64,000 bases of DNA from Candidatus Woesebacteria bacterium RBG_16_42_24 (GTDB lineage Bacteria > Patescibacteriota > Microgenomatia > UBA8517): contig MGFX01000002.1 of assembly GCA_001792115.1 (NCBI GenBank), positions 4,965 through 68,964 of the forward strand, read 5' to 3'. Of the stretch, positions 30,759 through 51,933 are shown piece after piece. The notes under the pieces are model-generated. The model saw only the letters and a program-made list of their open reading frames with translations. It made no database searches and was not told the origin of the DNA. Both the position numbers and the translations under genes were made by a program. Position 1 is the first letter of the stretch. Each line of letters opens with the position of its first letter.

Positions 30759-32645
30759 ATGTGCGGAATAGCAGGAAAAGTGTATTTTGACTCAAGGGTT
30801 GTTACACCTGTGCAATTAAGGCAATTGTCTGAAAAAATCATCCATCGAGGACCCGACGATGACGGGGTTTATGTAAGCGGCGACAAGAAAGTTGGGTTAG
30901 TAAACCGTCGCCTGGCAATCATCGACTTATCAAAAGCCGGACACCAGCCGATGATTTACAAAAACCGCTACGCAATTACCTATAACGGAGAGGTTTATAA
31001 CTTCCAGGAAGAAAGACGCAAGTTAGAAAAAGAAGGTTACGTCTTCAAATCAAATACTGATACCGAGGTGATCCTTGCCCTCTATGACAAATACGGAGTG
31101 TCCTTTTTAAAAAGACTTCGGGGGATGTTTGCTTTTGCAATCTATGACGATAAAGAAAAAACTTTGTTTCTTGCCAGAGACAGAATTGGTAAAAAGCCTT
31201 TAAAGTATTTCATTAAGGGTGGTACTTTTATCTTCGCATCAGAGCTAAAAGCGATTCTTACCCAACACGAAGTCAAAAGAGCTATTGACTACAATGCAAT
31301 ACAATTTTACTTAGTCTACGGCTACACTCCGGCACCCCTTACCGGTTTTGAGGGTATCAAGAAGCTTCAACCCGGTCACTACATACTAATGAACTTAAGG
31401 CGAAAAACATTTGAAGTCAAAAGATATTGGGAACCGGTTTTCAGAAATAAGCTTCGCTTAACGGAGAGTGAGTGGTGCGACAGGATTCTTGAAACCTTAG
31501 AAGAATCTACCAGACTTCGAATGATTTCGGACGTACCTATCGGAGCTTTTATCTCCGGAGGAGCTGACTCGAGCGGAGTGGTTTATGCCATGAGCAAATT
31601 CTCGGATAAGCCCATAAATACTTTTACAATTGTTTTCGAAGACAAAAGGTGGAGCGAGGCTAAATACGCAAGGGGCGTTGCCAAAAAATTCGAGACCAAC
31701 CACCACGAACTTTTGGCAAAACCTGAGAATGTCGAAATCCTTCCTGAACTTGCCCATCAGTACGAAGAACCTTTTGCGGATGCCAGCAACGTTATTACTT
31801 ATATGGTTAGCCGTCTTGCCAGAAAGTATGTCACTGTCGTTTTAAACGGAGATGGAGGGGATGAGCTTTTTGCCGGATACCCTAATAGGTATTTTAGGCT
31901 GAAAAGGGACGTAGATTTTTACGAATGGATAAACAGAGTCAGACCAATGGCGGTTACTGGTTTAAAAGGATTACAGAAAATCTCTAAAAGCGCACTGCTT
32001 ACAAGGTCAACCAATTTCTTTGAAAAATCGAGGCTTCCGCTTTATCAGCGCTTTGCCTCCTATAACCAAATATTTTCTTTTGAAGAAATCGTCAACATGT
32101 CTAAGGACGCGTTGGTCAAGGTCAATAGCACCCAGAATCCGTACGCAATTGTAGAAAATAGTTTCAGAATGTTTAAAGGCAAGGACCTTAAAGATGCAGG
32201 GTTGAAATTCGACCTTTTATACTGGCTGCCGGATGACCTTTTGGCCAAAGTTGACATCGCTTCCATGGCGAGCTCTCTTGAAGCCCGCTCTCCCCTACTG
32301 GACCATCATATGATAGAGCTTGCAGGCAAAATTCCTTTCAGATTAAAGGTAAAAAATGGAGAGAGTAAATACATCTTCAAAAAGGCTCTTGAGAGAGTCG
32401 TTCCTCGGGAAAATTTATACAGGCCCAAGATGGGCTTTGGGGTTCCCCTCCATATTTGGTTCTCCGGGAAATTAAATAGTTATACAAAGGGAGTTCTACT
32501 TTCCAAAAAGGCAAAGATTAAAGGGTTAATTAGACAAGATGTTATCAAAAATATGCTTGAGGGTCATTCGGAAACCAGTGATTTCGGCCCACGCCTCTGG
32601 GCTCTACTTTCATTGGAGCTCTGGTTACGAAGGTTCTTCGACTAA
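30759..32645 (+). CDS. asnB: Asparagine synthase (glutamine-hydrolysing) family amidotransferase (AsnB/WbpS-like)
   Basis: MCGIAG N-terminal nucleophile start, a PP-loop SGGADSS, and a full-length 628 aa. Confidence 0.85.
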   Translation: MCGIAGKVYFDSRVVTPVQLRQLSEKIIHRGPDDDGVYVSGDKKVGLVNRRLAIIDLSKAGHQPMIYKNRYAITYNGEVYNFQEERRKLEKEGYVFKSNTDTEVILALYDKYGVSFLKRLRGMFAFAIYDDKEKTLFLARDRIGKKPLKYFIKGGTFIFASELKAILTQHEVKRAIDYNAIQFYLVYGYTPAPLTGFEGIKKLQPGHYILMNLRRKTFEVKRYWEPVFRNKLRLTESEWCDRILETLEESTRLRMISDVPIGAFISGGADSSGVVYAMSKFSDKPINTFTIVFEDKRWSEAKYARGVAKKFETNHHELLAKPENVEILPELAHQYEEPFADASNVITYMVSRLARKYVTVVLNGDGGDELFAGYPNRYFRLKRDVDFYEWINRVRPMAVTGLKGLQKISKSALLTRSTNFFEKSRLPLYQRFASYNQIFSFEEIVNMSKDALVKVNSTQNPYAIVENSFRMFKGKDLKDAGLKFDLLYWLPDDLLAKVDIASMASSLEARSPLLDHHMIELAGKIPFRLKVKNGESKYIFKKALERVVPRENLYRPKMGFGVPLHIWFSGKLNSYTKGVLLSKKAKIKGLIRQDVIKNMLEGHSETSDFGPRLWALLSLELWLRRFFD

Positions 32646-34097
32646 TAGCACTCCTTTTTCTTCTATAAACTTATACTTGAAACCTTTTAATCTCTCGCTT
32701 CTTAGAAAAAGTTGAAGAGTTTCCGATTCATAAACAAACTTCATATCCTCACCCATTTCGGCTTCTTCTAGCCCAATTTCAGATCCTCTTGTAATTTCTC
32801 TATTTTGGGAAACTTCTTCTATTTTTTTTGTGACACCAATTACTTTTCCTTTGAGCTCGTTTTTCCATGTGTATTGAATCAAAAAACAGTTATCCATAAA
32901 TAACTTATTAAGCTTAAAGACCCCGATAGCCAAAATTAAAATGAAATAAATATTGAAAATTTTAAGCCAGACTTTTGGCCTCTTCATCAGCCGGCTTTTA
33001 ACTGCTGAGTGTACTTCGAAAAGTAAGAAAGTTAGGCCCATAAAAAGAAAAAATGCCGCGATATAAACGTAATAATTAGAAACTCTTTTCTCAAAGAGTA
33101 GGGAGGGTCCTAAAAAAGCAAAAAATGATATAAGAAAGGGGGTCATTATAGCCTTTCTCTTTATCAAATCGAAGAAAATAAACGATAAGAATAATACTAT
33201 TAAGGCTATTAGGGAAGACTCAACAATCGGAAACAAATAACCTCCATAGAAAAGGAAATTTTCAGCTATGGCGGGGGTATTGACGCCAATTTTATATGAA
33301 TCTTGACTCGGAAGGCTTCGATAGTTAAGAAAGCCGGTTGCGTAAGTAAATAGATAAATAATAAAAATGACCGCAAACGGTAAGAGTGCTCGTATAACCC
33401 TAGCAAAATTAAGGCGAGAGACATTGTTGTGGTAAAAGACAGTAATCGCGCCCAGAGAAATTGGGAGAACGAAAGTAATCTCCTTGGTTAGTATGGCGAG
33501 AATATAGAAAAAGATTGTCCAAATGTAAGTTTTTTCTTCCTTTTTGAGCCACTTAACCCACAAGAAAGTTGAAAGAAGGACAAATGTCGCCCCCATAATC
33601 TCGTGCATATTTGAAATCCAGGTCAGGTAATATGAACCCACAATAAAGGCAGAAAACACTGCAAACGAGGTTTTCTTTAACTTTTGGACTATTAGGTAAA
33701 AGAGCAAAACATTGGCCGAGTGCAAAATAAAATTAGCCGCAAGGAAAGCTTCGGTTTTTATACTAAAGAGTTGAAATATAGCCTTAAAAAGCCAGAATGC
33801 TCCGATAATCCTGTGTCCCACCCAAATTCCCCCAGCCGTAAAAGCCATTCTTGCTATATCAAAATAAGAGTTTTCATTTACAAGGCGTAAGTGTGCAAAA
33901 TCATCGGACAGAAAAAATGGGTCGTTTCTCAAAAGCCGAATAAAAATGACGGTAGGGGGTAGAAGAATTAACAAAAAACTAAAATATTTATTTTTAAATA
34001 GGCGGGAAATGAAGTTATAAAAAACTATTACAGGAAGTGAATATTGAAGGAGAAGTGGTATTTTTACCCCAAAAACTAAGTAACAAATTCTATCCAT
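32625..34097 (-). CDS. Polytopic membrane protein, hypothetical
   Basis: Multi-TM ORF whose end overlaps asnB convergently by 21 nt. Confidence 0.4.
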   Translation of the reverse strand: MDRICYLVFGVKIPLLLQYSLPVIVFYNFISRLFKNKYFSFLLILLPPTVIFIRLLRNDPFFLSDDFAHLRLVNENSYFDIARMAFTAGGIWVGHRIIGAFWLFKAIFQLFSIKTEAFLAANFILHSANVLLFYLIVQKLKKTSFAVFSAFIVGSYYLTWISNMHEIMGATFVLLSTFLWVKWLKKEEKTYIWTIFFYILAILTKEITFVLPISLGAITVFYHNNVSRLNFARVIRALLPFAVIFIIYLFTYATGFLNYRSLPSQDSYKIGVNTPAIAENFLFYGGYLFPIVESSLIALIVLFLSFIFFDLIKRKAIMTPFLISFFAFLGPSLLFEKRVSNYYVYIAAFFLFMGLTFLLFEVHSAVKSRLMKRPKVWLKIFNIYFILILAIGVFKLNKLFMDNCFLIQYTWKNELKGKVIGVTKKIEEVSQNREITRGSEIGLEEAEMGEDMKFVYESETLQLFLRSERLKGFKYKFIEEKGVLLVEEPS

Positions 34098-34889
34098 TTA
34101 CCCCTCTTTCCTAACCTCGACCAATAAATGTGGTCCCCATAAGTAAAATGGGTAAATAAACCTACTTCCCAAAAATCGAAAAAACTTCTGAATAAAGCTT
34201 GCACTGAGTAATTCCTCCCTCCAGCAAGAAGAAAAATATTCTATTAAAAGTCCTCTATCCTGAAGAAACTTTATAAGGGAACCCAGATAAGGTTCGATGG
34301 TGGTATCCCAATCGATTTCATATTTCTCACTTGTTGCAATAGGTTCTACTTTATTCCAATTTAAGCCTGATTTTGGGAAAAAATCGAGGACAAATCCTCT
34401 TATAAGCTTTATTATTCTATTCCCCTTAAAGGGCGGGGAGGCTCTATTGGGCGCACCGAAGTTGGGAGCAACTATTAAAAGACTCCCACCTTTCCTAAGT
34501 ACTCTTATACCTTCTTTCAATGCAGTCTCAGGACTTTCTAGATGTTCAAAAACAAAAGCGCAGTAGACAAGCTCAAAACTCTCATTTCTAAAGGGTAATT
34601 CCTCTAAATCTCCTTGCCTAAAATCTAACTTCGGATATTTCTTTTTCGCAAGCTCAATCGCCTTCCGGCTAATATCAATACCGACCGCTTTTTGAGCTCT
34701 TTTGGCTAACAAGTTTAAGCGCGTTCCCTCTCCACAACCCATGTCGAGTATTGAGCTTACCTGACCTGCAAGCCTAGAAAGTCTTTTCATGGCAGGATGA
34801 GAAGTCTCTGAGCTGCCGCATCTTGCTGCGAGGTAATAATCTTTTTTACTCCAAACCTCTTTCCTTAGTACCCTGCTTTTGAACCCCAT
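34098..34889 (-). CDS. Class I SAM-dependent methyltransferase
   Basis: ILDMGCGEGTRLNLL...FELVYCAFVFEHLESPETALKEGIRVLRKGGSLLIVAPN. Confidence 0.75.
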   Translation of the reverse strand: MGFKSRVLRKEVWSKKDYYLAARCGSSETSHPAMKRLSRLAGQVSSILDMGCGEGTRLNLLAKRAQKAVGIDISRKAIELAKKKYPKLDFRQGDLEELPFRNESFELVYCAFVFEHLESPETALKEGIRVLRKGGSLLIVAPNFGAPNRASPPFKGNRIIKLIRGFVLDFFPKSGLNWNKVEPIATSEKYEIDWDTTIEPYLGSLIKFLQDRGLLIEYFSSCWREELLSASFIQKFFRFLGSRFIYPFYLWGPHLLVEVRKEG

Positions 34890-35704
34890 ACCTTTCTTTT
34901 TATCTTTCTTAAAGGAGTCTCAAGAATCGCTCTTGCTTGAAATGCTGGGCTCATTTCCCCCCATGGGGAGGGAACAATATTTGGCCGGTCTCTAAAAAAA
35001 ACTTCGGGATAGTAATAATCCAATGGAAAAGATAAACCCAACTCGTATTTGAGCTTTTTAGATCTTTTGGCAACTGCCAGGTCCTCACCCTTACTACCTG
35101 CTCTTTGCAAAAATGAAAAATGAAGGTATGGGGCTTCCATATACTTTATTTTTGCCGGGTCTCTATCTTGAACCATTTTCCCTTCCTCATCCGCCCAACC
35201 CCAAGTCCCATGAGGATTTACAGAATGCAAACCAGGAATTCCTCTTTTAAAAGCCCTTTGATTGTAATGGCCAACTCTTCCAGAAAATTTATACATTCCT
35301 GCCGCCTTTTCTTGGTAATGGAAAATATCTCCAACAACAAGAAAGTTCGGAACAACTATCGACTCTATACTGTTACCATGCTGTCTTATTGTTTCTGTAA
35401 CTTTCTTGATTGAGTCCTCCCACCAAACCTCGTCGCCGTCGAGAATAATAAACCAGTCCGAATCTGTTTGGTTTAGCATCTCTTGTCGAACTAAAGTGAA
35501 ATCATCCGCACTTTCTTGCTTAACCTGCCGAAAGCCTATTTTTTCAGGAAATCGATTTATCAGCTTTTTGCAGATTTCAAGAGTTCCATCAGTACTTCCT
35601 GTATCCCAAAGAAGAACCTTGTCAACGAAGGGGGCGACACTCGCGACCGAGTACCAAAGGTACCTTTCTTCATTTTTGACTAAAGTGTGAGCCCAAATAG
35701 ACAT
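34865..35704 (-). CDS. Putative GT-A fold glycosyltransferase
   Basis: IWAHTLVKNEERYLWYSVASVAPFVDKVLLWDTGSTDGT and a DxD-like ILDGDEVWW. Confidence 0.5.
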   Translation of the reverse strand: MSIWAHTLVKNEERYLWYSVASVAPFVDKVLLWDTGSTDGTLEICKKLINRFPEKIGFRQVKQESADDFTLVRQEMLNQTDSDWFIILDGDEVWWEDSIKKVTETIRQHGNSIESIVVPNFLVVGDIFHYQEKAAGMYKFSGRVGHYNQRAFKRGIPGLHSVNPHGTWGWADEEGKMVQDRDPAKIKYMEAPYLHFSFLQRAGSKGEDLAVAKRSKKLKYELGLSFPLDYYYPEVFFRDRPNIVPSPWGEMSPAFQARAILETPLRKIKRKVWGSKAGY

Positions 35705-35788: not shown

Positions 35789-37090
35789 CTATTTTGAAAT
35801 TAGAGTTTTGGGTTTTGGATTTACCCAATAGTGCCTAAAAACTATTATCCAGGAATAAACCGCAAGGATTGTGTTTACCACAAAAAAGGCTACCAGAGGT
35901 CCAAAAGCCCCAAGTTTAGGAATAAGGAGGATATTTATTAAAAAAATCGCGGCTAACTGGAAAAAGGAAAAGTAGCCGATATAAACCGGTCTTTTAATCG
36001 AGTAGATTATGGCAGTTACGGGAGGCGTCGCCAAAACAAAAGGGATAAGCGAGCCAACAAACGCCCTAAAAATTGGAACCGCTTCTTCATACTTTTGCCC
36101 AAAAAGAAATGTTACAAAAGGTCTGGCAATAATCATCCAAACTACCATCCCAAAAACAATTACTAACGTCGCGAGTGTTGCTTTTATAATGTAGACTTTT
36201 TCCTTGTGCCTATCTTCAAAGGAGGAAAGTCTTGGAGCCATCACATTTGAAAGGCTTGAGGTAAGAACCGCTATAAAAAGGGCCAGACGTTGAGCAATTG
36301 AATATTGGCCCGTTATTGTAGCCCCCGACATAACAGCCAACATTTGTACGTCAAGCCTGCCCGAGATCGCAGAAACCACCCTATTTACTCCAACCCATCC
36401 GGAAAAACGAAGAAGTTTTGAGTAAACTTCTTTTGGAGTATCCACCTTCAGAAAGGACGGCCCGAGCAGTAATACACCCAAAACTGCTGCGGCTAGACCT
36501 CCCACTGTAAAAGAAAGAAACGAGGTGTTAAGGGTAAGAACGCCTGCAACAAAAAAAACGTAAACCGACAAAGCTCTAACAATGCCTATTGTAAGATCAA
36601 CCGAAACTGAGGCGATAAAGCGCTTGTAAGCCTGAAGTGCCGTAGGAAAATAAGCCCAAAAAAGAAGCCCGAAAGAAAGAGCCACACTCCAATAAATCAC
36701 TGACATATCTTCGCTTGCAAGAAGCTTCTTTACCGAAGGTGCAAATGCCAAAACAAGAAGAGATAGAAGCGATGTGGCTGCAACTCTTACAACAAGTGAC
36801 GCCTTCAAAAATCTATGAGAGTTTTTTGTGTCCCCCTTGGCCTGGAAATTCGCAACAAAAGTAACAAGCCCCGCGGAGATCCCGACATCGGCGAGGGAAG
36901 AGATGATAGCTATCAGGTTATTGACGGCAGAAAAAACTCCGAAATCACCGACTGATAATCCTCTCGCAATAATTAAGGTAAACAAAAAACCCAGAAAGGC
37001 AGAGGCCACGTTTCCGGCAAATAGAACGTACGTATCTTTTGCTGACTGGGATTTCGCAAGTCCGACAGCCCTATCAATATAAGCCCTCAT
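35789..37090 (-). CDS. Polysaccharide/oligosaccharide flippase (Wzx-like, MOP superfamily)
   Basis: A 12-14 TM protein with GNVASAFLGFLFTLIIARGLSVGDFGVFSAVNNLIAIISSLADVGISAGL, typical of PST-family flippases. Confidence 0.7.
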   Translation of the reverse strand: MRAYIDRAVGLAKSQSAKDTYVLFAGNVASAFLGFLFTLIIARGLSVGDFGVFSAVNNLIAIISSLADVGISAGLVTFVANFQAKGDTKNSHRFLKASLVVRVAATSLLSLLVLAFAPSVKKLLASEDMSVIYWSVALSFGLLFWAYFPTALQAYKRFIASVSVDLTIGIVRALSVYVFFVAGVLTLNTSFLSFTVGGLAAAVLGVLLLGPSFLKVDTPKEVYSKLLRFSGWVGVNRVVSAISGRLDVQMLAVMSGATITGQYSIAQRLALFIAVLTSSLSNVMAPRLSSFEDRHKEKVYIIKATLATLVIVFGMVVWMIIARPFVTFLFGQKYEEAVPIFRAFVGSLIPFVLATPPVTAIIYSIKRPVYIGYFSFFQLAAIFLINILLIPKLGAFGPLVAFFVVNTILAVYSWIIVFRHYWVNPKPKTLISK

Positions 37091-37170: not shown

Positions 37171-37914
37171 TTAGGAATTGTTACGATACTTGAAGCCTGT
37201 GCCCTTTTTAAGGAGTAACTTAACCCCCTCCTTCAAATAGTAAAAAGGGCTATCCAGATAAAAAAGAACAGATCCTCTTTTTAACTTGCTTTTATTTCTT
37301 TTAACAAAACCTTTGTATTCATGAATTAATTCATGAAAGTGAAGGGTCCGAACTTCCTTATGGTCAATTTTGTCTTCCCAATAATACACAAACTCCTCCT
37401 CTCCGCTCCAATGGGTAAAATGGAAGTTGCTTGAGTAAAGAAGTGGGTAGTTTTTTGGGACAACGTAGATCACCTCACCCTTTTCATAGAATAACCATTT
37501 ATGATGAGCCTGTCCCGGCACTCTTCTTGAACCTGTAAGCCAGTCAGTGAAGTTTATGTGGGAAAAAACCATATCGGCGCCCATTGAAGGTGTAACAATA
37601 AGTCCTCTTTTTGCAACCCTAGACATCTCTTCGATTGCCAAAAATGGATAGCTCAAATCCTCGAGCGTGTGTGAACATATACAAAAATCGAATTCTTTAT
37701 CAGCAAAGGGCAGTTTATCCCTAGTTACATCTACTTTGACGAAATTTTTAGCTCTAAGTTTAGTTGGACCATATGGCGCTTCTTCTGGACTGATAATATC
37801 TACGAGCGTGTCCACCCGGATTTCGTCTCTTTGTCTCATGCTTCCTCCAATATCCAAAATTCTATCTTTGGGTTTTATTTTGAAGCGGGAAATTACCTCT
37901 CTATCGCTAATCAT
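37171..37914 (-). CDS. Class I SAM-dependent methyltransferase
   Basis: ILDIGGSMRQ...FDFCICSHTLEDLSYPFLAIEEMSRVAKRGLIVTPS. Overlaps the upstream membrane gene by 4 nt. Confidence 0.6.
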   Translation of the reverse strand: MISDREVISRFKIKPKDRILDIGGSMRQRDEIRVDTLVDIISPEEAPYGPTKLRAKNFVKVDVTRDKLPFADKEFDFCICSHTLEDLSYPFLAIEEMSRVAKRGLIVTPSMGADMVFSHINFTDWLTGSRRVPGQAHHKWLFYEKGEVIYVVPKNYPLLYSSNFHFTHWSGEEEFVYYWEDKIDHKEVRTLHFHELIHEYKGFVKRNKSKLKRGSVLFYLDSPFYYLKEGVKLLLKKGTGFKYRNNS

Positions 37915-39389
37915 CTATTTTTCCTGACTAGAAGAACTGCCCGAGCGGGTTCTCTCTCGTATGTCTCATCAGACAAAATCATAAATTCCTTCTTAAATTC
38001 AAAGTTACTGACAATAAATTTATCCTCGATATCTTTTGGGTTCTCAAAAGCTTGCCTCCACTCGGGTCCCATAAAATAGTTTTCATCGTCTATTAAATAA
38101 CTCGTGAGAAATATTGCATCAAACGGGTTTTTTTCTGCCTCAATATCTAGCTGGTCCGGTTTTAAAGGAAACCAGACTGTCTTTCTTTCCCCATACCAAC
38201 TTCCCCATGTGTCAAGATTGGTAACAATGACGTCTTCTGGGCTGGTATTTTCTCTTAGCGTCCTGGAAAGGGTGACGTAAACGGGGGGTTTTCCTTTGTT
38301 GACAATCTTTGCTTTGTGCCTTGAATCAAGAAAAATGACTCCGAGGGTTTGGCCAACTACAAAAACAAAGACCAGCAAACTCGAAACCAGAATTCTGGCT
38401 TTGTTTTTGTTAATACCTAAACCCAAAATCCTAAATCCTAATCCCTCCACTATCCAAACCAGCGTCGCTACTGCGAAAAGATAAACCAACGGAACCACTG
38501 GGTGAAGATATCTAAAAAGGGGAATAGTTAAGGCTGCAACTAAAAAAGTAGCTACAACCATAAAAATTGTTGAAATCTTTAGATAGTTTTCTATTTTGTT
38601 TTTTGACCACATAAATAACCCAATTATAAAAAGCGCCCACATATAGGGCGAGGTAATCTGGGGTAGAAGTTTGTAGAAATTATAGAGATTATAAAAAACC
38701 TTTTTAAATATAGCAATTATGTTTGTTTCCTGCACCGCTCCTCTTAGGGCATCCGATGTGGCCTGACCAGGCAGGTGTTGGGTAACTGCAAATATTCCTT
38801 GCTTGGAAATGAAGAAGTATAGTGCCGATCCTGCGACGAAAGTCGCTATGAAATAACTCAGTGCCTTTTTTATAGGAAAGTTAAGAAGAAAAAATAAAAA
38901 TAAAAGTCCAAAAATATAAATAATCGCCTGAGCGCGTGTGAAATAAACTAAAACTAAAACTAAAAATCCTAAGATATTGGCCCATTTCCTCCTCATGATA
39001 AAAAGATAGGCCCCAAGAATTATCTCGCATGCAAATAATGTCTCGGAAGCGCCGCTTGTGGCATATTCCAGGAAATTTACATTGAAAGCAACTGAGATTG
39101 CTCCCAATAATCCTACGAGCTGTCCCCACAACTTCTTGCCAAGAAGATAAGTTGTCAAAACGAGGAGTAGATAAAAGAAGGATGAGGTTGCTATAACGCT
39201 TAAATCCGAAATTCCGAATATCTTAAAGAATCCCGCAATTGCCAAGGGCATACCTGGTTGTATCACTTGTGCGTTATTTGCACCCCAAAAATTGAAGGAC
39301 GAGGAAAACTCATTCCCTTGAACAATACTTCTGGCTATATCGGCATATTTAGCACCATCTGAAAACGTCAAATAAAGATGGAACATCAT
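37911..39389 (-). CDS. Polytopic membrane protein, possible GT-C glycosyltransferase
   Basis: N-proximal SDGAKYADIARSIVQG followed by 11 or more TM helices. Confidence 0.4.
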   Translation of the reverse strand: MMFHLYLTFSDGAKYADIARSIVQGNEFSSSFNFWGANNAQVIQPGMPLAIAGFFKIFGISDLSVIATSSFFYLLLVLTTYLLGKKLWGQLVGLLGAISVAFNVNFLEYATSGASETLFACEIILGAYLFIMRRKWANILGFLVLVLVYFTRAQAIIYIFGLLFLFFLLNFPIKKALSYFIATFVAGSALYFFISKQGIFAVTQHLPGQATSDALRGAVQETNIIAIFKKVFYNLYNFYKLLPQITSPYMWALFIIGLFMWSKNKIENYLKISTIFMVVATFLVAALTIPLFRYLHPVVPLVYLFAVATLVWIVEGLGFRILGLGINKNKARILVSSLLVFVFVVGQTLGVIFLDSRHKAKIVNKGKPPVYVTLSRTLRENTSPEDVIVTNLDTWGSWYGERKTVWFPLKPDQLDIEAEKNPFDAIFLTSYLIDDENYFMGPEWRQAFENPKDIEDKFIVSNFEFKKEFMILSDETYEREPARAVLLVRKNR

Positions 39390-40169
39390 CTACTCCTTTA
39401 TTGCTACCACAACTAAAGAATTGCCAAAATATCCAAAAATGAAATTGAATAAGTAAAAGAAAAAAGTAAAAAACGAAAAAGAAATTTTATTATTAAAATA
39501 AGGATAGATGTGCTGAGTCAAAAAATCAAAATGATAAACCCAAGAAGTCGATATTTTGTAATTTGGAATTTTTATATCTCTCATAAATTTTCTTATTTCA
39601 TCGCGTGTAAATCTATAAACAAAATTCCCAGATTCTTCATATTCTAGCGCTAGATTTAGTTTAATTAATATTTTAGTAATAAAATTTCTTTGAGCTTCGA
39701 TAAACACGAACCCCCTTTTACTAATTCTATTCATTTCGAGCAAGCCTTTGTATGGATAAGGAATATGATGCAGGCCGTGGCGAACTATAACTAAATCAAA
39801 ACTTTTATCTCTAAACGGCAAATTCTCCGCATCGGCAACCACACCTCTTAAATATTTGCACCTTCTTTTCGCTGCTTTTACGGCTTCGAGGGAAAAATCG
39901 CTGACAGTAACCTTTGCCCCCAATTTATACAAATACTCCCCTTCGGCGCCATCCCCACAACAAATACTCAAGACAGTCTTATTTTTAACCTTAAAAGGCA
40001 ACAAAGAAACGGCTTCCTTTAAAGTATAGTACTCCATAAAATTTCCAATTAAGCTTTCCTTATAGAAAGTTTTCGATCCGTCCCTAAAACGGGATTTAAA
40101 AACATTGTCCATATATATTTTCTGGTAAAACTTTTGTTTGACGGGATCTTTCTGTTTTCTAATTTTCAT
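39390..40169 (-). CDS. Class I SAM-dependent methyltransferase
   Basis: VLSICCGDGAEGEYLYKLGAKVTVSDFS...FDLVIVRHGLHHIPYPYKGLLEMNRISKRGFVFIE. Confidence 0.7.
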   Translation of the reverse strand: MKIRKQKDPVKQKFYQKIYMDNVFKSRFRDGSKTFYKESLIGNFMEYYTLKEAVSLLPFKVKNKTVLSICCGDGAEGEYLYKLGAKVTVSDFSLEAVKAAKRRCKYLRGVVADAENLPFRDKSFDLVIVRHGLHHIPYPYKGLLEMNRISKRGFVFIEAQRNFITKILIKLNLALEYEESGNFVYRFTRDEIRKFMRDIKIPNYKISTSWVYHFDFLTQHIYPYFNNKISFSFFTFFFYLFNFIFGYFGNSLVVVAIKE

Positions 40170-40222: not shown

Positions 40223-41188
40223 ATGTATACTGCGCATCAAATAAAGATGATTAACTTTATCAAAATATCCGACTTTCCTAAATATTTCACTTGTCCGTAT
40301 TGTCCTAGGAATGGTAAAACCTCCTTACAGGTAATAAAAAACGGGGTCCATTGTCAAAAATGCCAAAGAAAATTTCTAATCAGGAACCATATTCTTGAGT
40401 TTGTTATTAATAAAGAATTGGATAGCGAAACTAAACGAGAACTCAAAGGGAACAGTTACCCTCTTACCAAAAAGAATATCGAGCATTACGCAAACAAAGA
40501 CAAATGGAGTGCTTATTATAATCATTTTGTTAACCAAAAATTCGAATATCTATTAAAATTTCTAGACTCAATACATATGGGAGGGATTATTTCTTTGGGA
40601 TCCGGTCATGGTTTTGAACTCAAAGAAATATTGAAACGAAAAAAATTTAACCTTGTGTTTTCATCAGATCTTGCATATGCCGCCACAAGTATCGTGCCAG
40701 TTACACTCAAGGATTACAACGTCGACCTTGGCCTTTTTACCTCAGATCTTAATCACACCCCGGTGATACCAAACAACGATATGCCCATTTTAATATACGA
40801 GGCTTTACACCATACGGGAGACATACATTTTACTGTAGAAGAACTGCTTAAAAGAAAATTCAAAAATATTTTATTTGTCGAACCCACGACAAATTTTTTA
40901 ATTAAAATACTCGCCAAATTTAATCTGGCACAAAGAGTTGAATATTCCGGTCTTAAGCCTGACTTTTTAGATATTGATATACTTAAAAAGTTATCTAAAA
41001 AATACAATTACAATCTAAAAATTCGTACGCTTTGGGATATCCCTGAAGATTATTTTAGAGTTATCTGCAAAAGGGATTCCTTGCTCCAAACTATTCTTTT
41101 AAAATTCATTGATATTTTCTCCCAAGTTGGAAACGTTTTTCAGTTTGGCAGTTTCGCGGTTGTCTCCTTGGAACAAAGTAAGTATTGA
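40223..41188 (+). CDS. Putative methyltransferase-like protein with an N-terminal zinc ribbon
   Basis: CPYCPRNGKTSLQ...HCQKCQRKF (a CxxC...CxxC ribbon) followed by IISLGSGHGFELKEIL, a Rossmann-like motif I. Confidence 0.4.
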   Translation: MYTAHQIKMINFIKISDFPKYFTCPYCPRNGKTSLQVIKNGVHCQKCQRKFLIRNHILEFVINKELDSETKRELKGNSYPLTKKNIEHYANKDKWSAYYNHFVNQKFEYLLKFLDSIHMGGIISLGSGHGFELKEILKRKKFNLVFSSDLAYAATSIVPVTLKDYNVDLGLFTSDLNHTPVIPNNDMPILIYEALHHTGDIHFTVEELLKRKFKNILFVEPTTNFLIKILAKFNLAQRVEYSGLKPDFLDIDILKKLSKKYNYNLKIRTLWDIPEDYFRVICKRDSLLQTILLKFIDIFSQVGNVFQFGSFAVVSLEQSKY

Positions 41189-41976
41189 GTATGAAAACTG
41201 TAGCAATTGTAACCCCCTCCTACTATAAACCTCGATTTAGCGAAGAAGACCTGATTTCGCTAGAACACTTAAAAAAACATTTGGGTAAGTACGATAGATA
41301 TTTTCTTGTTCCTGACGGGATAAACTCCAATAAACTTAAAAAGGGGGGTTTTGGCTTTATCAAATTTCCTAGCGAATTTTTTGCTAGTACAAAAACGTAC
41401 AATCAACTACTCCTATCGGAAGATTTCTATAAGGCGTTTAAAAATTACAAATACTTATTAATTTATCAGCTGGATGCATTGGTCTTTTCAGACCAGCTTC
41501 TAAAATGGTGTAACCGCGGGTATGATTATATTTCTGCACCGTGGTTTAAAACGGTAATCGGATCGTTGGCTCACAAAAAAGGGTTTCCCGCCAGCGGGGG
41601 AAACGGCGGATTTTGTTTAAGAAATGTTCAAAGTTCCCTAAAAGTCCTAGAAAGGGTGAATATGTTAGCCAAAAGATCTTCTGCTAAGAGTTGGGTCAGA
41701 AAAATGTGGTTTTTTCTCGCGGTAATAACGGGAAAATCCCACAAAAAATGGCTAAATGCACCGGCTACCAATTATCCTTTTAATGAAGACGGCTTTTGGT
41801 CATTAGAGGCTCCTAAGTATCTTCCTGGCTATAGAGTCGCACCATTTAAAACAGCGCTAAAGTTTGGTTTTGAAAGATTCCCCAGAAAATGTTATGAATT
41901 GAATAAGAAAAAACTTCCCTTTGGCTGCCATTCGTGGGAAAAATACGATAAAGATTTTTGGCTTCCCTACCTATGA
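41185..41976 (+). CDS. Hypothetical protein, possibly a glycosyltransferase-like (GT-A) domain
   Basis: YLLIYQLDALVFSDQLLKWCNRGYDYISAPW. Family not recognised. Confidence 0.3.
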   Translation: MSMKTVAIVTPSYYKPRFSEEDLISLEHLKKHLGKYDRYFLVPDGINSNKLKKGGFGFIKFPSEFFASTKTYNQLLLSEDFYKAFKNYKYLLIYQLDALVFSDQLLKWCNRGYDYISAPWFKTVIGSLAHKKGFPASGGNGGFCLRNVQSSLKVLERVNMLAKRSSAKSWVRKMWFFLAVITGKSHKKWLNAPATNYPFNEDGFWSLEAPKYLPGYRVAPFKTALKFGFERFPRKCYELNKKKLPFGCHSWEKYDKDFWLPYL

Positions 41977-42000
41977 TACAATCCAAAGATTGCGCATAAA

Positions 42001-42708
42001 ATGGATAGAATGATCAATTGGTTTAAAATTATTCAGGGGCTTATCTACCATAGATTTTATATTAATCCCAAGACGGAAAAAAATGTCGTAAGGTCCTTCC
42101 ATGAATTGTATTACAACTCTACTCTATGGAATAAAGGTCTTGGCAACACCCACTGGTTCGGTATAAAAACATTAAAATGTCCTTTAGATTGCTGGATTTA
42201 TCAGGAACTAATTTACAAATTAAAGCCGGATATCATAATCGAATGCGGCACCTTCAATGGGGGCAGTGCTCTATATCTTGCAGGACTGTGTGATCTATTA
42301 AATAAGGGGAAAGTTATCACAATTGACACCGATTCCTATAAGGGCAAACCGCAACATAAGAGAATCAAATATCTATTGGGAATGTCTACTTCGGATAAAA
42401 TTGTGGATCAGGTAAAAAAGTTGGTAAGGCCAAAAGATAGGGTTTTGGTAATTTTAGATTCCGACCACAGCCGGGATAATGTGATTAAAGAGTTGAGAAT
42501 CTACAATAAGTTCGTACCTAAGGGGGGGTATATTATCATTGAGGACACAAACATCAACGGCCACCCTGTTCGACCCGAATTTGGACCCGGACCCATGGAG
42601 GCCGTAGAAATATTTTTAAAAGAGAATAAGGACTTTGCCATAGATAAAAGTCAGGAGAAATTTTATCTGACTTTTAATCCCAACGGGTATCTTCGAAGAA
42701 TTAAGTAA
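42001..42708 (+). CDS. CmcI-family (cephalosporin hydroxylase/rhamnosyl O-methyltransferase-like) SAM-dependent O-methyltransferase
   Basis: WIYQELIYKLKPDIIIECGTFNGGSALYLAGL...VILDSDHSRDNVIKELRIYNKFVPKGGYIIIEDTNINGHPVRPEFGPGPMEAV. Confidence 0.65.
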   Translation: MDRMINWFKIIQGLIYHRFYINPKTEKNVVRSFHELYYNSTLWNKGLGNTHWFGIKTLKCPLDCWIYQELIYKLKPDIIIECGTFNGGSALYLAGLCDLLNKGKVITIDTDSYKGKPQHKRIKYLLGMSTSDKIVDQVKKLVRPKDRVLVILDSDHSRDNVIKELRIYNKFVPKGGYIIIEDTNINGHPVRPEFGPGPMEAVEIFLKENKDFAIDKSQEKFYLTFNPNGYLRRIK

Positions 42709-42733: not shown

Positions 42734-44065
42734 TTATTTATCTTTAGGCGACACTTTCCCTAAGACCAAACTAATGTAGTAAATCATGAGTGGAGGAAAA
42801 AACATGGACATCCTTATCGCAGAATCCGGAATATCTTTCCATTCTTGAAATCTAATACTAAACAAATAAGTACCAGTATATATAGTCATAAAATTCGCTA
42901 ATATTATTAGTAGCATTATCAGATTCTTCCTGGTAATCCAGTTTTTTATGTCAAAAAATACTGCAATCAAAAAAATCGCAAGTATTGGTCCCCAAGATTG
43001 AACTACGTTTCGATATACATAGAGAGAAACGTCCCAAATTCTTTTGAAATCGACGCCGGTTGATAATATCGCAGGTATTAGAGAGATTTGACCGGCGGTT
43101 GAAAGCGTAGGTCCATACAAACGGGCCTGAAATATATTCCATGGCTGTTGGATTATAAAAAAAGGAACAAGGAATATTAACGCGGAGTATATGCTTTTTT
43201 TGCGTACAGCGTAAATTAAAACTATTAAAATCTCTGCCAACCATAAGGGCTCTGCGGATCTTGCCCAAGTACTCAATCCAACTAATAAAGAGGACATAAG
43301 CAAATAATCGGGCCTATTTCGAGTAACGGCAATATAAAGATATATAATCCCAATTACATAAAAGGCTGTATACGGCAAATTTGTATATGCAAATGTTGAG
43401 TGCGCAAATAATGCCGGGGTCGTGACCAAAAGTAGAGTTGCAAACAAGGCGGCGGGCCTACTAGCTCCTTTCCTGATGACGCTGTAGAAGATGGCAGCAA
43501 AAGAAAAAAAGTATAAAGAATATATAAATTGAGGGTTGCTACCTCCAAACAAATAAACGATTGTATGTCCGAGAGGCACTAAAAGCGGATACTGAGCAAA
43601 ATAAAAATATTGATTGGCAATTTGTACGAAATAGCCAGTCTGGGCCACAATCTTCGCGGTAAAATCATATAGGGCCAATGCATCCCAGACGTAAACCGGA
43701 TAATAAAGAGCGATTAGAAGACTCAATGAGAAAATTACCCCTATTACCAAGCAAATTATTTTTTCGAACCAACTAAGTTCTATAAAAATTCGTTGCACAT
43801 TTGGCAACCTAATTTCGATTTTCCTCTTCAATAAAACGAGTACGAAAAAGAGTAATGAAATCAATCCTGACACAATTGCTATAATACTGGTTGCGGTAAT
43901 TTTGATACCGGCCCAGGAAAAGAAAAATATTAGGAGTGTGATAAGGCCCATACCCAACAAATAGGACAGTCCCCCCCTCTCAGCTAGCGGCAGGTCCTTA
44001 ATAATAAGAGAGGAAAACAAATAACCAAAAACCACAATTAGTATAAAAATTAACAATACTTGCAT
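42734..44065 (-). CDS. Polytopic membrane protein, possible GT-C family
   Basis: Multi-TM ORF convergent with the CmcI-like gene. Confidence 0.4.
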   Translation of the reverse strand: MQVLLIFILIVVFGYLFSSLIIKDLPLAERGGLSYLLGMGLITLLIFFFSWAGIKITATSIIAIVSGLISLLFFVLVLLKRKIEIRLPNVQRIFIELSWFEKIICLVIGVIFSLSLLIALYYPVYVWDALALYDFTAKIVAQTGYFVQIANQYFYFAQYPLLVPLGHTIVYLFGGSNPQFIYSLYFFSFAAIFYSVIRKGASRPAALFATLLLVTTPALFAHSTFAYTNLPYTAFYVIGIIYLYIAVTRNRPDYLLMSSLLVGLSTWARSAEPLWLAEILIVLIYAVRKKSIYSALIFLVPFFIIQQPWNIFQARLYGPTLSTAGQISLIPAILSTGVDFKRIWDVSLYVYRNVVQSWGPILAIFLIAVFFDIKNWITRKNLIMLLIILANFMTIYTGTYLFSIRFQEWKDIPDSAIRMSMFFPPLMIYYISLVLGKVSPKDK

Positions 44066-45039
44066 TATTTTTTAACTTTAATTAATCCCCACATTTGCTT
44101 ATTCTCTACCTTTTTATAGATATAGTCTTCTTCTCTTTCCACCGTTTTTCCCTCGTTTAGCATATAAACTATTTTCTCTGCCTTTACGTCAAATTTAGGC
44201 CACCCGTTGGTCTGAACTCCAGCAGGGGCATCCAACTCTCCCCATGTAAGTAACACATAATCGATATCTTCTTTATTCAAATCATATTTCGGAGAGTATT
44301 CTTCGCCGTTTAACAAAACCCTCGGATATAAGAAGTACGTCATATAGGGGATGTTTCCTGATTGGGCCCAGGGCCAAGTTGGAAATGGAGGAATTAAAAT
44401 CTTTGAATCCTCGGGAGTACTTTTCTTGACAAACAAAACGTAATCATAAAATTTTTTACCCAATTTTTCTTCCATTTTTTGATCGTAGGAGGCGGTCGGA
44501 TTTTTAATGATAAACGAAACATCGCGCGCGACGCTCGTTCCTAAATCGATAAAGCTCTTTACCAATATCCACGAAGTAATAACCACGACAGGAAACCATT
44601 TGTATAAAATTTCGGGATTTTTTCGAATCACCAATAAAACATCTTTCGAAGATATAATGAATGCGTATATTGACAGTGCCAACGGCGTTCCCAATTCCAG
44701 AGGGTGGATATGAAAAGTCGAAAATACGTAATTAGGATAGTGGATTTTTTCCAGTAAATAAAAAGTATAATATCCTAGTCCGAAGACATATATTGAATAA
44801 AAACTAACCGTGCGAAATGAGCGAATAGGCTGCTTCTTCCACCCAGAACCATAAAACCCAAACGATCCTGCAATTCCAAACGTCAGATAGATGAGAAGTG
44901 GTTCTATAGAAGTGTGTTTCAATAAAACACCCGGGTAAAAATATGCTTCTGCGAAACTGACCGCCAATGCCACCAGCCACACAACTGGCAGAAGAAACAA
45001 AATATATTTAATATAGCGTGCCAAAAACCTATTGAACAT
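44065..45039 (-). CDS. Hypothetical membrane protein (N-terminal TMs plus C-terminal soluble domain)
   Basis: Similar architecture to ORF 45765..46796, a possible paralogue. Confidence 0.4.
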   Translation of the reverse strand: MFNRFLARYIKYILFLLPVVWLVALAVSFAEAYFYPGVLLKHTSIEPLLIYLTFGIAGSFGFYGSGWKKQPIRSFRTVSFYSIYVFGLGYYTFYLLEKIHYPNYVFSTFHIHPLELGTPLALSIYAFIISSKDVLLVIRKNPEILYKWFPVVVITSWILVKSFIDLGTSVARDVSFIIKNPTASYDQKMEEKLGKKFYDYVLFVKKSTPEDSKILIPPFPTWPWAQSGNIPYMTYFLYPRVLLNGEEYSPKYDLNKEDIDYVLLTWGELDAPAGVQTNGWPKFDVKAEKIVYMLNEGKTVEREEDYIYKKVENKQMWGLIKVKK

Positions 45040-51692: not shown

Positions 51693-51769
51693 AAAATTCT
51701 TGTTTCATTTTCATTGAATTTTTCAAGAGGGGTCTCCTCTTTTTCTTTAGACATAATGGAATTATAGCA

Positions 51770-51894: not shown

Positions 51895-51933
51895 CTTACC
51901 AGATATGAGTTAAAAGTGTGGTGTTTAGCTATA

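What the first reader, a model, noticed from the sequence alone, without database searches (positions are those of the whole stretch)
37171..40169. Recurrent 'polytopic membrane protein + SAM methyltransferase' modules with 4-nt start/stop overlaps
MTase 37171..37914 overlaps membrane ORF 37911..39389 by 4 nt, and MTase 39390..40169 abuts it on the other side. The same membrane/MTase arrangement recurs at 44065..45039 next to 45052..45768, and at 45765..46796 overlapping that MTase by 4 nt. The two membrane proteins have similar architecture (N-terminal TMs plus a C-terminal soluble domain) and may be paralogues. A carbamoyltransferase, MTase and polyprenyl-P-sugar synthase are likewise chained by 4-nt overlaps at 48152-51692. 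This suggests translationally coupled modules that methylate glycan intermediates at the membrane, possibly with each membrane protein acting as substrate carrier or scaffold for its MTase.
Basis: partly seen in the sequence, partly recalled or inferred. Interest (0 to 1): 0.5.

Follow-up and report, generated by a model that had tools for sequence, protein, structure and literature searches.

The report
Methyltransferases interleaved with GT-C glycosyltransferases
The "membrane protein + methyltransferase modules" are part of a very large cell-surface sugar-polymer gene cluster of a tiny uncultured bacterium (Woesebacteria-like), in which the membrane proteins are themselves sugar-transferring enzymes or their partner subunits, not carriers for the methyltransferases.

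Summary

- **New partner family:** 44065-45039 and 45765-46796 share a paralogous five-helix membrane domain (hhalign 98%). They belong to an unannotated family (about 1,000 cluster representatives). That family sits next to GT-C cores (14 pairs) and is fused to one in two proteins.
- **4-nt overlaps are generic:** ATGA-type overlaps occur at 18 of 53 same-strand junctions, and only 4 involve a methyltransferase (MT).
- **Adjacency inside the window:** MT-membrane adjacency is not beyond chance (P = 0.09).
- **Adjacency across species:** In 30 species-level loci an MT flanks the GT-C more often than shuffling gives (18 against 11.5, P about 0.006).
- **Conserved orders:** GT-C -> MT(37171) -> Wzx flippase recurs with -4 to +4 nt junctions. 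A cassette GT-C-like / partner / MT / partner / GT-C recurs in three other genomes, with a different MT in the same slot.

Best reading: this is one lipid-carrier glycan assembly line. Cytoplasmic SAM MTs, two of them with hydrophobic segments, methylate lipid-linked sugars on the inner face. GT-C enzymes then add sugars outside.

This is an ordinary kind of system. It has two unusual components: a split or partnered GT-C, and GT-C variants that lack TM1.

The parts
39390..40169 (-). MT_B: class I SAM methyltransferase (259 aa) with a hydrophobic segment of about 20 aa just before its last strand. It is probably the first gene of the sub-operon.
   Evidence: Methyltransf_11 scores 67 bits. The hydrophobic stretch covers residues 239-257. 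Orthologues at 59-66% identity in L041 and L060-62 keep the same tail. A weak PDB match to D-glucose O-MT 6uv6 has E 3e-5.
37911..39389 (-). GTC*: ArnT/PMT-like GT-C-fold glycosyltransferase (492 aa), a variant that lacks TM1.
37171..37914 (-). MT_A: conserved class I SAM methyltransferase (247 aa), coupled to GTC* by an ATGA overlap.
   Evidence: Methyltransf_11 scores 34.6 bits. The alignment comprises 26 sequences (the window protein plus 25 orthologues); LDxGGS, D39, D62 and HxLEDL are invariant or nearly so. Synteny is GTC* -> MT_A -> Wzx.
35789..37090 (-). Wzx-type (MOP) flippase
   Evidence: Polysacc_synt scores 70.7 bits. It lies downstream of GTC* in nearly all related loci.
34865..35704 (-). 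Soluble GT2 glycosyltransferase (GT2a)
   Evidence: Glycos_transf_2. It is conserved directly after Wzx.
34098..34889 (-). MT_C: class I SAM methyltransferase that abuts the next GT-C with no gap.
   Evidence: Methyltransf_11 scores 93 bits. An MT_C-like gene followed by a GT-C recurs in 13 loci.
32625..34097 (-). GT-C-like glycosyltransferase (PMT_2)
   Evidence: PMT_2 scores 26.8 bits.
40223..42708 (+). Three-gene insert on the opposite strand: a zinc-ribbon + MT-like protein (40223-41188), a DUF5672 protein (41185-41976) and a CmcI/rhamnosyl O-methyltransferase (42001-42708).
   Evidence: Pfam. 40223-41188 weakly resembles MT_B (E 1e-4). The CPYC..CQKC and GSGHG motifs are read directly from the sequence.
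42734..44065 (-). GT-C core (443 aa) with no soluble domain; partner of 44065-45039.
   Evidence: PMT_2 scores 32 bits, above the 26.1 cut-off. It carries a WDALALYD motif. It aligns to the N-terminal halves of the fusion proteins P0195 (E 3e-18) and P0194 (E 5e-13).
44065..45039 (-). mem44065: member of a new family with five TM helices and an extracytoplasmic alpha/beta domain; a GT-C partner.
45052..45768 (-). MT_D: class I SAM methyltransferase with a C-terminal hydrophobic segment. It occupies the slot between the two partner proteins.
   Evidence: Methyltransf_23 scores 54 bits. The hydrophobic stretch covers residues 195-220. In L060-62 an MT_B orthologue occupies the same slot.
45765..46796 (-). 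mem45765: paralogue of mem44065 in the membrane domain, with a different C-terminal domain.
   Evidence: hhalign gives 98.2% probability, E 3.9e-14. Only 13 homologues were found. It follows a mem46786-like gene in L060-62.
46786..48213 (-). mem46786: polytopic membrane protein, GT-C-like by inference (it carries a WDE motif).
   Evidence: It has a weak LIC_10190-family hit. Hydropathy gave 12 partly overlapping hydrophobic windows, roughly 8-10 distinct segments by eye. The YVWDEMSY motif is read from the sequence. The GT-C fold was not verified.
48152..49948 (-). NodU/CmcH-type O-carbamoyltransferase
   Evidence: Carbam_trans_N and Carbam_trans_C; NodU-like.
49945..50631 (-). MT_E: class I SAM methyltransferase
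   Evidence: Methyltransf_11 scores 30.6 bits. Orthologues follow the GT2 synthase in L060 and precede mem46786 in L062.
50628..51692 (-). GT2 with C-terminal TM segments, resembling a polyprenyl-phosphate sugar synthase. It is the first gene after a 241-nt gap.
   Evidence: Glycos_transf_2 scores 96 bits. The best NCBIfam models are AglJ, Dol-P-hexose transferase, PpgS and ArnC, all below their cut-offs. TM segments lie at residues 234-339.

Best explanation
The region belongs to one lipid-carrier-based surface glycan (cell-wall polysaccharide) assembly line. It spans at least about 54 kb (from about 9.6 kb to the window end) in a Woesebacteria-like Patescibacteria genome.

Proposed sequence of events:
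1. Cytoplasmic GT4 and GT2 enzymes build a polyprenyl-diphosphate-linked glycan.
2. GT2 synthases with membrane anchors (50628-51692; 54655-55302 with DUF2304) make polyprenyl-phosphate monosaccharide donors.
3. Class I SAM methyltransferases and a carbamoyltransferase decorate sugars on the cytoplasmic face. Either the lipid-linked oligosaccharide or the lipid-linked monosaccharide donor could be the substrate. Two MTs (39390-40169 and 45052-45768) associate with the membrane through a hydrophobic insertion.
4. Wzx flips the intermediate.
5. Many GT-C-fold transferases add further sugars on the outer face. These include 37911-39389, 42734-44065 with its partner 44065-45039, and probably 46786-48213 with 45765-46796.

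The MT/membrane adjacency reflects co-inherited 'transferase + decoration' cassettes in a very compact operon. The ATGA overlaps are generic translational coupling.

Shown here: the GT-C fold of 37911-39389, the MT domains and their motifs, the synteny statistics, and the partner-GT-C linkage.
Inferred: sidedness, substrates, the order of steps, and membrane association of the MTs.
For: Identity of the components:
- Ten ORFs in the window hit PMT_2, PMT or ALG10. GT4, GT2, Bac_transf, Wzx, Wzy_C and LCP genes are also present.
- MT_A motifs are conserved across 26 sequences.
- The GT2 50628-51692 resembles Dol-P/Und-P sugar synthases and has C-terminal TM segments.
- A PpgS-like GT2 lies next to a DUF2304 gene.

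Synteny:
- The core order GTC* .. Wzx - GT2 - (MT) - GT-C - GT4 - GT-C - GT2 is conserved across more than 30 Microgenomates loci.
- GTC* -> MT_A junctions are -4 to +4 nt in 17 of 18 loci; the exception (-53) is an ORF-calling artefact. MT_A -> Wzx is seen in 26 loci.
- An MT flanks GTC* in 18 of 30 species-level loci, against 11.5 +/- 2.4 by shuffling (P about 0.006).
- The cassette mem46786 - mem45765 - MT - mem44065 - GT-C recurs in L060-62. There an MT_B orthologue takes the place of MT_D.

Where the MTs act:
- GT2-MT fusion proteins occur in L064 and L061. This links the MTs to cytoplasmic transferase steps.
- Tailoring of lipid-linked monosaccharide donors before GT-C transfer is known. 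Examples are the auxiliary epimerases of three-component systems (PMC11127046) and ArnD in the Arn pathway (my own knowledge).
Against: - No substrate or product is known, and no glycan structure exists for any Microgenomates organism.
- The NCBIfam matches of the GT2 synthases fall far below their curated cut-offs.
- No GtrA-type flippase was recognised.
- The cross-species enrichment is modest, and the loci are phylogenetically related, so P is optimistic.
- The GT-C nature of 46786-48213 is unverified.
- The window GT-C lacks TM1, which is atypical for the fold.
- The hydrophobic segments of MT_B and MT_D were not modelled.
Confidence: 0.62

Rival explanations
1. Donor-tailoring three-component systems. 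Each MT (and the carbamoyltransferase) modifies the polyprenyl-phosphate monosaccharide made by a GT2 synthase on the inner face. A dedicated GT-C, or a GT-C + partner pair, then transfers the already methylated or carbamoylated sugar outside. On this reading the MT/GT-C adjacency reflects donor specificity. This is a more specific version of the best explanation.
For: - The chain GT2 synthase -> MT_E -> carbamoyltransferase -> GT-C-like is linked by 4-nt overlaps and is conserved in L060.
- A GT2-synthase-like -> MT pair lies beside GTC* in L012, L013, L021 and L023.
- The hydrophobic segments of MT_B and MT_D suggest a membrane-embedded substrate.
- Non-orthologous MTs occupy the same slot between the partner proteins.
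- Tailoring of lipid-linked donors has precedent (PMC11127046).
Against: - I know of no characterised case of O-methylation of a polyprenyl-P-monosaccharide, and the literature searches found none.
- GT2-MT fusions fit methylation of the growing chain equally well.
- MT_A tracks Wzx, the flippase for the oligosaccharide, not a synthase.
Confidence: 0.25
2. Each membrane protein is a carrier or scaffold that physically holds its MT, forming a translationally coupled membrane-MT complex.
For: - The GTC* -> MT_A junction is tight and conserved.
- MT adjacency to GTC* is enriched.
- MT_B orthologues are always followed directly by a membrane-protein gene.
- MT_B and MT_D carry hydrophobic segments.
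Against: - The membrane proteins are enzymes or enzyme partners in their own right.
- In L001/L022 and L009, MT_A follows Wzx directly rather than GTC*. It lies two or more genes from GTC* in L011, L017, L023 and L036.
- The flanking MTs belong to several unrelated families.
- Partner-GT-C arrays exist with no MT between them.
- None of the 120 listed GTC* homologues carries an MT domain.
- The idea that MT_B donates the missing TM1 is refuted by L041. There MT_B keeps its tail while the GT-C has its own TM1.
Confidence: 0.08
3. Pure chance and operon compaction. MTs and membrane proteins are simply both abundant, and adjacency carries no functional information beyond membership of the same cluster.
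For: - The within-window permutation gives P = 0.09.
- MTs make up 22.5% of the genes around GTC*.
- 4-nt overlaps occur at 34% of same-strand junctions.
Against: - The cross-species enrichment has P about 0.006.
- The GTC* -> MT_A -> Wzx order is conserved at 55-71% identity.
- The MT slot in the five-gene cassette is conserved despite MT replacement.
Confidence: 0.05

Closest known systems
ArnT / PMT (GT39, GT83) GT-C glycosyltransferases
   Different: - No sequence-level match to any PDB chain.
- Pfam PMT_2 falls below its gathering score for the window protein.
- The window protein lacks TM1, as do at least 14 other orthologues (L003, L004 and 12 genome loci).
- Donor and acceptor are unknown.
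Three-component extracytoplasmic glycosylation systems (GtrA/GtrB/GtrC; the pentofuranose systems of Kelly et al. 2024, PMC11127046; Arn pathway; mycobacterial PpgS/Rv3632/GT-C)
   Same: A GT2-type polyprenyl-P-sugar synthase sits in one operon with GT-C transferases, and auxiliary enzymes could tailor the lipid-linked donor. The PpgS-like + DUF2304 pair is present.
   Different: - Many GT-Cs occur per locus (at least 10).
- The candidate tailoring enzymes are methyltransferases and a carbamoyltransferase rather than epimerases or deformylases.
- No recognisable GtrA, SMR or MATE donor flippase lies next to the synthase.
- An extra partner family (mem44065) is present.
Archaeal N-glycosylation clusters (Haloferax agl: AglP methyltransferase, AglD/AglJ Dol-P-sugar synthases, AglR flippase, AglS/AglB GT-C). 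This comparison rests on my own knowledge.
   Same: The logic is the same. A SAM MT acts on a lipid-linked glycan at the cytoplasmic face. The cluster also holds a Wzx-like flippase, Dol-P-hexose synthases and GT-C enzymes. The window GT2 at 50628-51692 scores best against AglJ.
   Different: This system is bacterial. LCP and Bac_transf genes suggest a cell-wall polymer rather than a protein N-glycan. Far more MTs and GT-Cs are present. No orthology was shown.
GT-C enzymes with accessory subunits (for example PIG-M/PIG-X, Pmt1-Pmt2). This comparison rests on my own knowledge.
   Same: A GT-C core works with a second membrane protein. Here that is supported by conserved adjacency and by natural fusions.
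   Different: The partner is a new five-TM + alpha/beta-domain family with no detectable similarity to known subunits. The complex itself was not demonstrated.

Membership tests
GT-C glycosyltransferase superfamily (for 37911-39389) | GT-C fold: a polytopic helical core superimposable on solved GT-C enzymes | tested here: met
GT-C glycosyltransferase superfamily (for 37911-39389) | Conserved acidic residue in the first extracytoplasmic loop | tested here: met
   The FSDxAKFADIARN motif has D11 in at least 90% of 23 orthologues. A catalytic role is inferred, not tested.
GT-C glycosyltransferase superfamily (for 37911-39389) | TM1 preceding the first extracytoplasmic loop | tested here: not met
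   The window protein starts 8 residues before the motif. Orthologues P0002, P0003, P0015, P0022 and the L041 protein have a TM1. The window protein and at least 14 other orthologues do not.
GT-C glycosyltransferase superfamily (for 37911-39389) | Pfam PMT_2 (PF13231) at gathering score | tested here: not met
   The window protein scores 23.2 bits against a cut-off of 26.1. Most homologues carry a precomputed PF13231 hit.
GT-C glycosyltransferase superfamily (for 37911-39389) | Uses a polyprenyl-phosphate-linked sugar donor on the outer face | not testable with these tools
   This needs a biochemical assay.
Class I SAM-dependent methyltransferases (37171-37914, 39390-40169, 45052-45768, 49945-50631, 34098-34889) | Pfam methyltransferase domain above the gathering score | tested here: met
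   Scores are 34.6, 67.1, 54.4 (Methyltransf_23), 30.6 and 93.3 bits.
Class I SAM-dependent methyltransferases (37171-37914) | Conserved SAM-binding motif I and acidic residues | tested here: met
   LDxGGS, D39 and D62 are invariant or nearly so in 26 sequences.
Class I SAM-dependent methyltransferases | Sugar O-methylation activity | not testable with these tools
   Support comes only from genomic context and a weak hit of MT_B to D-glucose O-MT 6uv6 (E 3e-5).
Three-component extracytoplasmic glycosylation system | Polyprenyl-phosphate sugar synthase | tested here: inconclusive
   50628-51692 has a GT2 domain plus C-terminal TM segments. Its best models are AglJ, Dol-P-hexose transferase, PpgS and ArnC, but at 82 bits or less against cut-offs of 325-529.
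Three-component extracytoplasmic glycosylation system | Dedicated lipid-linked-donor flippase (GtrA, SMR or MATE) | tested here: not met
   No GtrA hit was found. The candidates are only the Wzx at 35789-37090 and the EamA transporter at 62311-63165.
Three-component extracytoplasmic glycosylation system | GT-C transferase in the same locus | tested here: met
Partnered/split GT-C (42734-44065 + 44065-45039; 46786-48213 + 45765-46796) | Conserved adjacency of a partner-family gene and a GT-C core | tested here: met
   There are 14 pairs at -10 to +9 nt. Tandem arrays occur in L001, L063-65 and L067.
Partnered/split GT-C | Natural fusion of the two parts | tested here: met
   P0194 (781 aa) and P0195 (759 aa) each have a GT-C-like N-terminal half and a mem44065-like C-terminal half. 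Both are uninterrupted ORFs in L066 and L067. Within the arrays the fusion joins the G of one pair to the m of the next.
Partnered/split GT-C | Physical complex and requirement for activity | not testable with these tools
   No multimer prediction tool was available.
   18 of 53 junctions carry it, and only 4 involve an MT.

The most novel reading that the evidence does not exclude
Microgenomates carry a previously undescribed multi-component extracytoplasmic glycosylation machine. GT-C cores that lack a soluble domain work with a new five-TM partner family. That family has about 1,000 sequence clusters, conserved E/Y/K-H and N/H/H motifs on the outer face, and an outside alpha/beta domain. 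Membrane-associated SAM methyltransferases encoded inside the cassette pre-methylate the polyprenyl-phosphate sugar donors. Methylated sugars would then be installed outside the cell. This route to O-methylated surface glycans has not been described.
Probability: 0.2. Interest if true: 0.65.

Novelty: new variant of a known kind. Interest (0 to 1): 0.4.

Why it matters
Patescibacteria (CPR) are ultra-small, mostly uncultured bacteria that live attached to other cells, and their surface chemistry is essentially unknown. This window shows that a Woesebacteria-like genome devotes more than 50 kb to one glycan pathway. The pathway has at least 10 GT-C transferases, and about one gene in five near the conserved GT-C is a methyltransferase. 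That predicts a heavily O-methylated and carbamoylated wall polymer.

The work also assigns a context-based role, as a GT-C partner, to a sizeable family that has no annotation. It flags TM1-less GT-C variants as well. Both are testable by structure prediction of complexes and by heterologous expression.

The specific idea in the finding, that membrane proteins act as MT scaffolds, is not what the data show.

Tried and rejected
1. **MT_B donates the missing TM1 of the GT-C.** MT_B and the GT-C are in the same frame, and the hydrophobic tail ends 11 residues before the stop. L003 looked like a second case. I rejected the idea for two reasons. At least 12 TM1-less orthologues have unrelated or opposite-strand upstream genes. 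In L041 the MT_B orthologue keeps its tail while the GT-C has its own TM1 and a 49-nt spacer.
2. **Read-through or fusion of MT_B and the GT-C across the TAG.** No fused homologue appears among the 120 listed, and L041 has a spacer.
3. **mem44065 as a diverged homologue of the GTC* family.** Full-length hhalign was negative. The C-terminal domains alone gave E 0.03 and 1.6% probability, which is inconclusive.
5. **hhalign of the GTC* profile against 46786-48213 and 42734-44065** was uninformative.
6. **Literature searches** for CPR, Microgenomates or Woesebacteria GT-C and glycan clusters, and for MT + GT-C + polyprenyl, found nothing specific except PMC11127046.
7. **Signal scans.** The promoter/terminator scan showed no enrichment, and Rfam gave no hit.


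Full report
**1. Observation**

- 37171-37914 and 37911-39389 share ATGA. So do 45052-45768 with 45765-46796, 48152-49948 with 49945-50631, and 49945-50631 with 50628-51692.
- 39390-40169 ends with TAG, directly followed by ATG ATG of 37911-39389 in the same frame. An AAGGAG Shine-Dalgarno sequence lies inside the MT 3' end.
- The methyltransferase (MT), carbamoyltransferase and GT2 domain calls are correct.

Two qualifications apply.
- The 4-nt overlap is the default junction of this operon. It occurs at 18 of 53 same-strand junctions, and only 4 involve an MT.
- Within the window, MT-membrane adjacency (7 observed) is not beyond what shuffling the gene order gives (4.3; P = 0.09). The reason is that 18 of the 50 cluster genes are polytopic membrane proteins.

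**2. Where it comes from**

Homologues of 37911-39389 are named Candidatus Woesebacteria, Microgenomates or Patescibacteria. A contig with a 99% identical copy (L004) has the same gene order.

From about 9.6 kb to its end, the window is one glycan locus. It contains:
- a Bac_transf initiating transferase;
- several GT4 and GT2 genes;
- Wzy_C and Wzx;
- ten ORFs that hit PMT_2, PMT or ALG10;
- six clear class I MTs plus one MT-like protein;
- a NodU-type carbamoyltransferase;
- AsnB, and a PpgS-like GT2 next to DUF2304.

LytR-CpsA-Psr (LCP) and DUF4012 genes lie upstream.

**3. The membrane protein at 37911-39389**

The family has a near-invariant Asp in FSDxAKFADIARN. The window protein starts only 8 residues before this motif and lacks TM1. 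Closer relatives have a TM1 (P0002, P0003, and the L041 protein at 63% identity). At least 14 more distant orthologues also lack it (L003, L004 and 12 genome loci).

I tested whether the hydrophobic C-terminal segment of the upstream MT supplies this missing helix. It does not.
- Most TM1-less orthologues have unrelated upstream genes.
- In L041 the MT_B orthologue keeps the segment while its GT-C has its own TM1.

**4. The two small membrane proteins**

44065-45039 and 45765-46796 have no Pfam or NCBIfam hit.
- They are paralogous in the N-terminal membrane domain only (hhalign 98.2%, E 3.9e-14, residues 4-143). They share the motifs ExxxYxGFxxKH and LExxxYxNxxxSxxHxxP.
- The AF2 model of 44065-45039 (pLDDT 87) shows five long helices and a C-terminal alpha/beta domain.
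- By the positive-inside rule, the conserved motifs and the soluble domain face outward. This is an inference.
- A word-based search found 59 relatives. An exhaustive profile search found 1,064 cluster representatives.

The informative result is context.
- A mem44065-like gene lies directly next to a GT-C core like 42734-44065 in 14 pairs, at -10 to +9 nt.
- These pairs often form tandem m-G-m-G arrays.
- In two proteins a GT-C-like core and a mem44065-like module are fused. P0195 has 26% identity to 42734-44065 over 324 residues (E 3e-18). P0194 gives E 5e-13. Both are intact ORFs in their contigs.
- 42734-44065 passes PMT_2 at gathering score and has no soluble domain.

So the small membrane proteins are partners of GT-C cores, or detached modules of them. 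They are not MT scaffolds.

The fusions join the G of one pair to the m of the next. It therefore remains open which neighbour is the true partner. The window shows both orders: 46786 -> 45765 and 44065 -> 42734.

**5. Is the MT adjacency conserved?**

Partly.

*GT-C-centred view.* I used 30 species-level loci and the genes within 6 kb on either side of the GT-C.
- MTs make up 22.5% of the neighbouring genes.
- An MT directly flanks the GT-C in 18 loci, against 11.5 +/- 2.4 under within-locus shuffling (P about 0.006).
- The loci are phylogenetically related, so this P is optimistic.
- The flanking MTs belong to different families: MT_A orthologues, Methyltransf_11/25-like, FkbM-like and TylF-like.

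*MT_A-centred view.*
- In 19 metagenomic loci with orthologues at 55-71% identity, Wzx follows immediately in nearly all.
- The GT-C precedes immediately in 11 of them, and in 3 more with a small ORF between.
- Where they are adjacent, the GT-C -> MT_A junction is always -4 to +4 nt. MT_A -> Wzx is typically about 30 nt.
- In L001/L022 and L009, MT_A instead follows Wzx directly. In L011, L017, L023 and L036 it lies two or more genes downstream of the GT-C.

*Second module.*
- In L060, L061 and L062 the order is 46786-like, 45765-like, MT, 44065-like, 42734-like. It is preceded by the GT2 synthase, MT_E and (in L060) the carbamoyltransferase.
- The MT in that slot is an orthologue of the window's MT_B (59-63% identity, same hydrophobic segment), not of MT_D.
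- So an MT slot inside a membrane-protein cassette is conserved while the MT family changes.
- Elsewhere the m-G arrays have no MT inside, but they have one or two MTs just upstream.

**6. Mechanism**

SAM is cytoplasmic, and the MTs have no signal peptides or N-terminal TM segments. GT-C enzymes act on the outer face with polyprenyl-phosphate sugar donors; this is established knowledge for the fold (see PMC11127046). The two activities are therefore on opposite sides of the membrane.

The most economical model has five steps.
1. Cytoplasmic GT4 and GT2 enzymes build the lipid-linked glycan, and GT2 synthases make the lipid-linked monosaccharide donors.
2. MTs and the carbamoyltransferase tailor these lipid-linked sugars on the inner face.
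3. Wzx flips the intermediate.
4. GT-C enzymes, with their partners, elaborate the glycan outside.
5. An LCP enzyme probably attaches the polymer to the wall.

Supporting details:
- MT_A has intact SAM-binding motifs.
- MT_B and MT_D carry a hydrophobic stretch of about 20 residues just before what looks like the last beta-strand. This suggests monotopic membrane association (inference).
- GT2-MT fusion proteins in related loci tie the MTs to cytoplasmic transferase steps.
- The GT2 at 50628-51692 resembles Dol-P/Und-P-hexose synthases.

Whether the MTs act on the oligosaccharide or on the monosaccharide donor cannot be decided here. The synthase -> MT -> carbamoyltransferase chain, and the recurrent synthase-like -> MT pairs, keep the donor-tailoring variant alive.

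**7. Comparison with known systems**

The system works like Wzx/Wzy-type polysaccharide synthesis combined with Gtr-, Arn- or PpgS-type extracytoplasmic glycosylation. It is conceptually close to the archaeal agl pathways, which have an MT acting on a lipid-linked glycan (my own knowledge). Membership rows are given separately.

Differences from known systems:
- the number of GT-Cs and the density of MTs;
- the new partner family;
- the TM1-less GT-C variants;
- the absence of a recognisable donor flippase.

I found no paper on such clusters in Microgenomates.

**8. Verdict**

Its core idea, that each membrane protein carries or scaffolds its MT, is not supported.

The system is a known kind (a glycan biosynthesis operon with tailoring MTs) with some new variants in its parts. 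Interest is moderate. It rests mainly on the unannotated GT-C partner family and on what the locus predicts about CPR surface chemistry.

Noticed in passing
window 37911-39389; L003, L007, L010-L014, L016, L018, L024, L032, L033: Many orthologues of this GT-C lack the first transmembrane helix and start a few residues before the conserved FSDxAKFADIARN loop. Close relatives of the window protein have the helix. Loss or gain of TM1 therefore seems recurrent, which is unusual for the GT-C fold.
   Followed up: partly
window 39387-39395: MT 39390-40169 and GT-C 37911-39389 are in the same reading frame, separated only by a TAG stop. An AAGGAG Shine-Dalgarno sequence lies inside the MT 3' end. No fused homologue was found.
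   Followed up: yes
window 44065-45039 and 45765-46796; P0193, P0204, P0194, P0195; L066:1694-3973, L067:5604-7949: An unannotated family (five TM helices + an outside alpha/beta domain) has about 1,064 cluster representatives. Some members have a duplicated membrane domain, and two are fused behind a GT-C-like core. The family typically occurs in m-G-m-G tandem arrays followed by a GT4.
   Followed up: partly
window 54278-55302: A PpgS-like GT2 (114 bits to the polyprenyl-phospho-GalNAc synthase model, below its cut-off) overlaps by 4 nt with a DUF2304 small membrane protein. From my own knowledge, this is the pairing of M. tuberculosis Rv3631/Rv3632. It recurs in L061.
   Followed up: no
window 40223-42708 (+ strand): A three-gene block on the opposite strand interrupts the minus-strand operon. 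It encodes a protein with an N-terminal CxxC..CxxC zinc ribbon and an MT-like GSGHG motif (no Pfam hit), a DUF5672 protein, and a CmcI/rhamnosyl O-methyltransferase.
   Followed up: no
L064:1-1151; L061:3259-4515 (-): Related clusters contain single proteins that combine a GT2 domain with a class I methyltransferase domain. This suggests the MTs act together with cytoplasmic glycosyltransfer steps.
   Followed up: no
window 60649-62310 and 63165-63971: The C-terminal part of the 553-aa GT-C-like protein (residues 289-480) resembles the N-terminal 190 residues of the neighbouring 268-aa membrane ORF (33% identity, E 3e-19). This could be a partial duplication or a split gene. An EamA transporter (62311-63165) lies between them.
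   Followed up: no
window 30759-32645 (+); many related loci: An asparagine synthase (AsnB) gene on the opposite strand is conserved beside the Wzx/GT2 core in many Microgenomates loci (58-90% identity). This hints at an amidation step in the glycan or wall pathway.
   Followed up: no
L005, L014, L015, L019, L020, L025, L027, L029, L030, L033-L036: Several MAG records titled 'uncultured Gammaproteobacteria bacterium' carry this Woesebacteria-type locus with the same synteny. Their record titles are probably wrong.
   Followed up: no
L010, L020, L025, L033 (gene between GTC* and Wzx): In loci without MT_A, the slot between the GT-C and Wzx often holds another polytopic protein of about 435-444 aa. 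It has a VRYWxDDFCS motif and a conserved C-terminal GKLDGFxENKGWV motif, and it is unannotated.
   Followed up: no
window 51693-51933: This is the only long intergenic gap in the region (241 nt). It contains the best minus-strand promoter-like site (51789-51761, 10 of 12 matches with a TG extension). That fits a sub-operon start at the GT2 synthase, although promoter-like sites are not enriched overall.
   Followed up: partly
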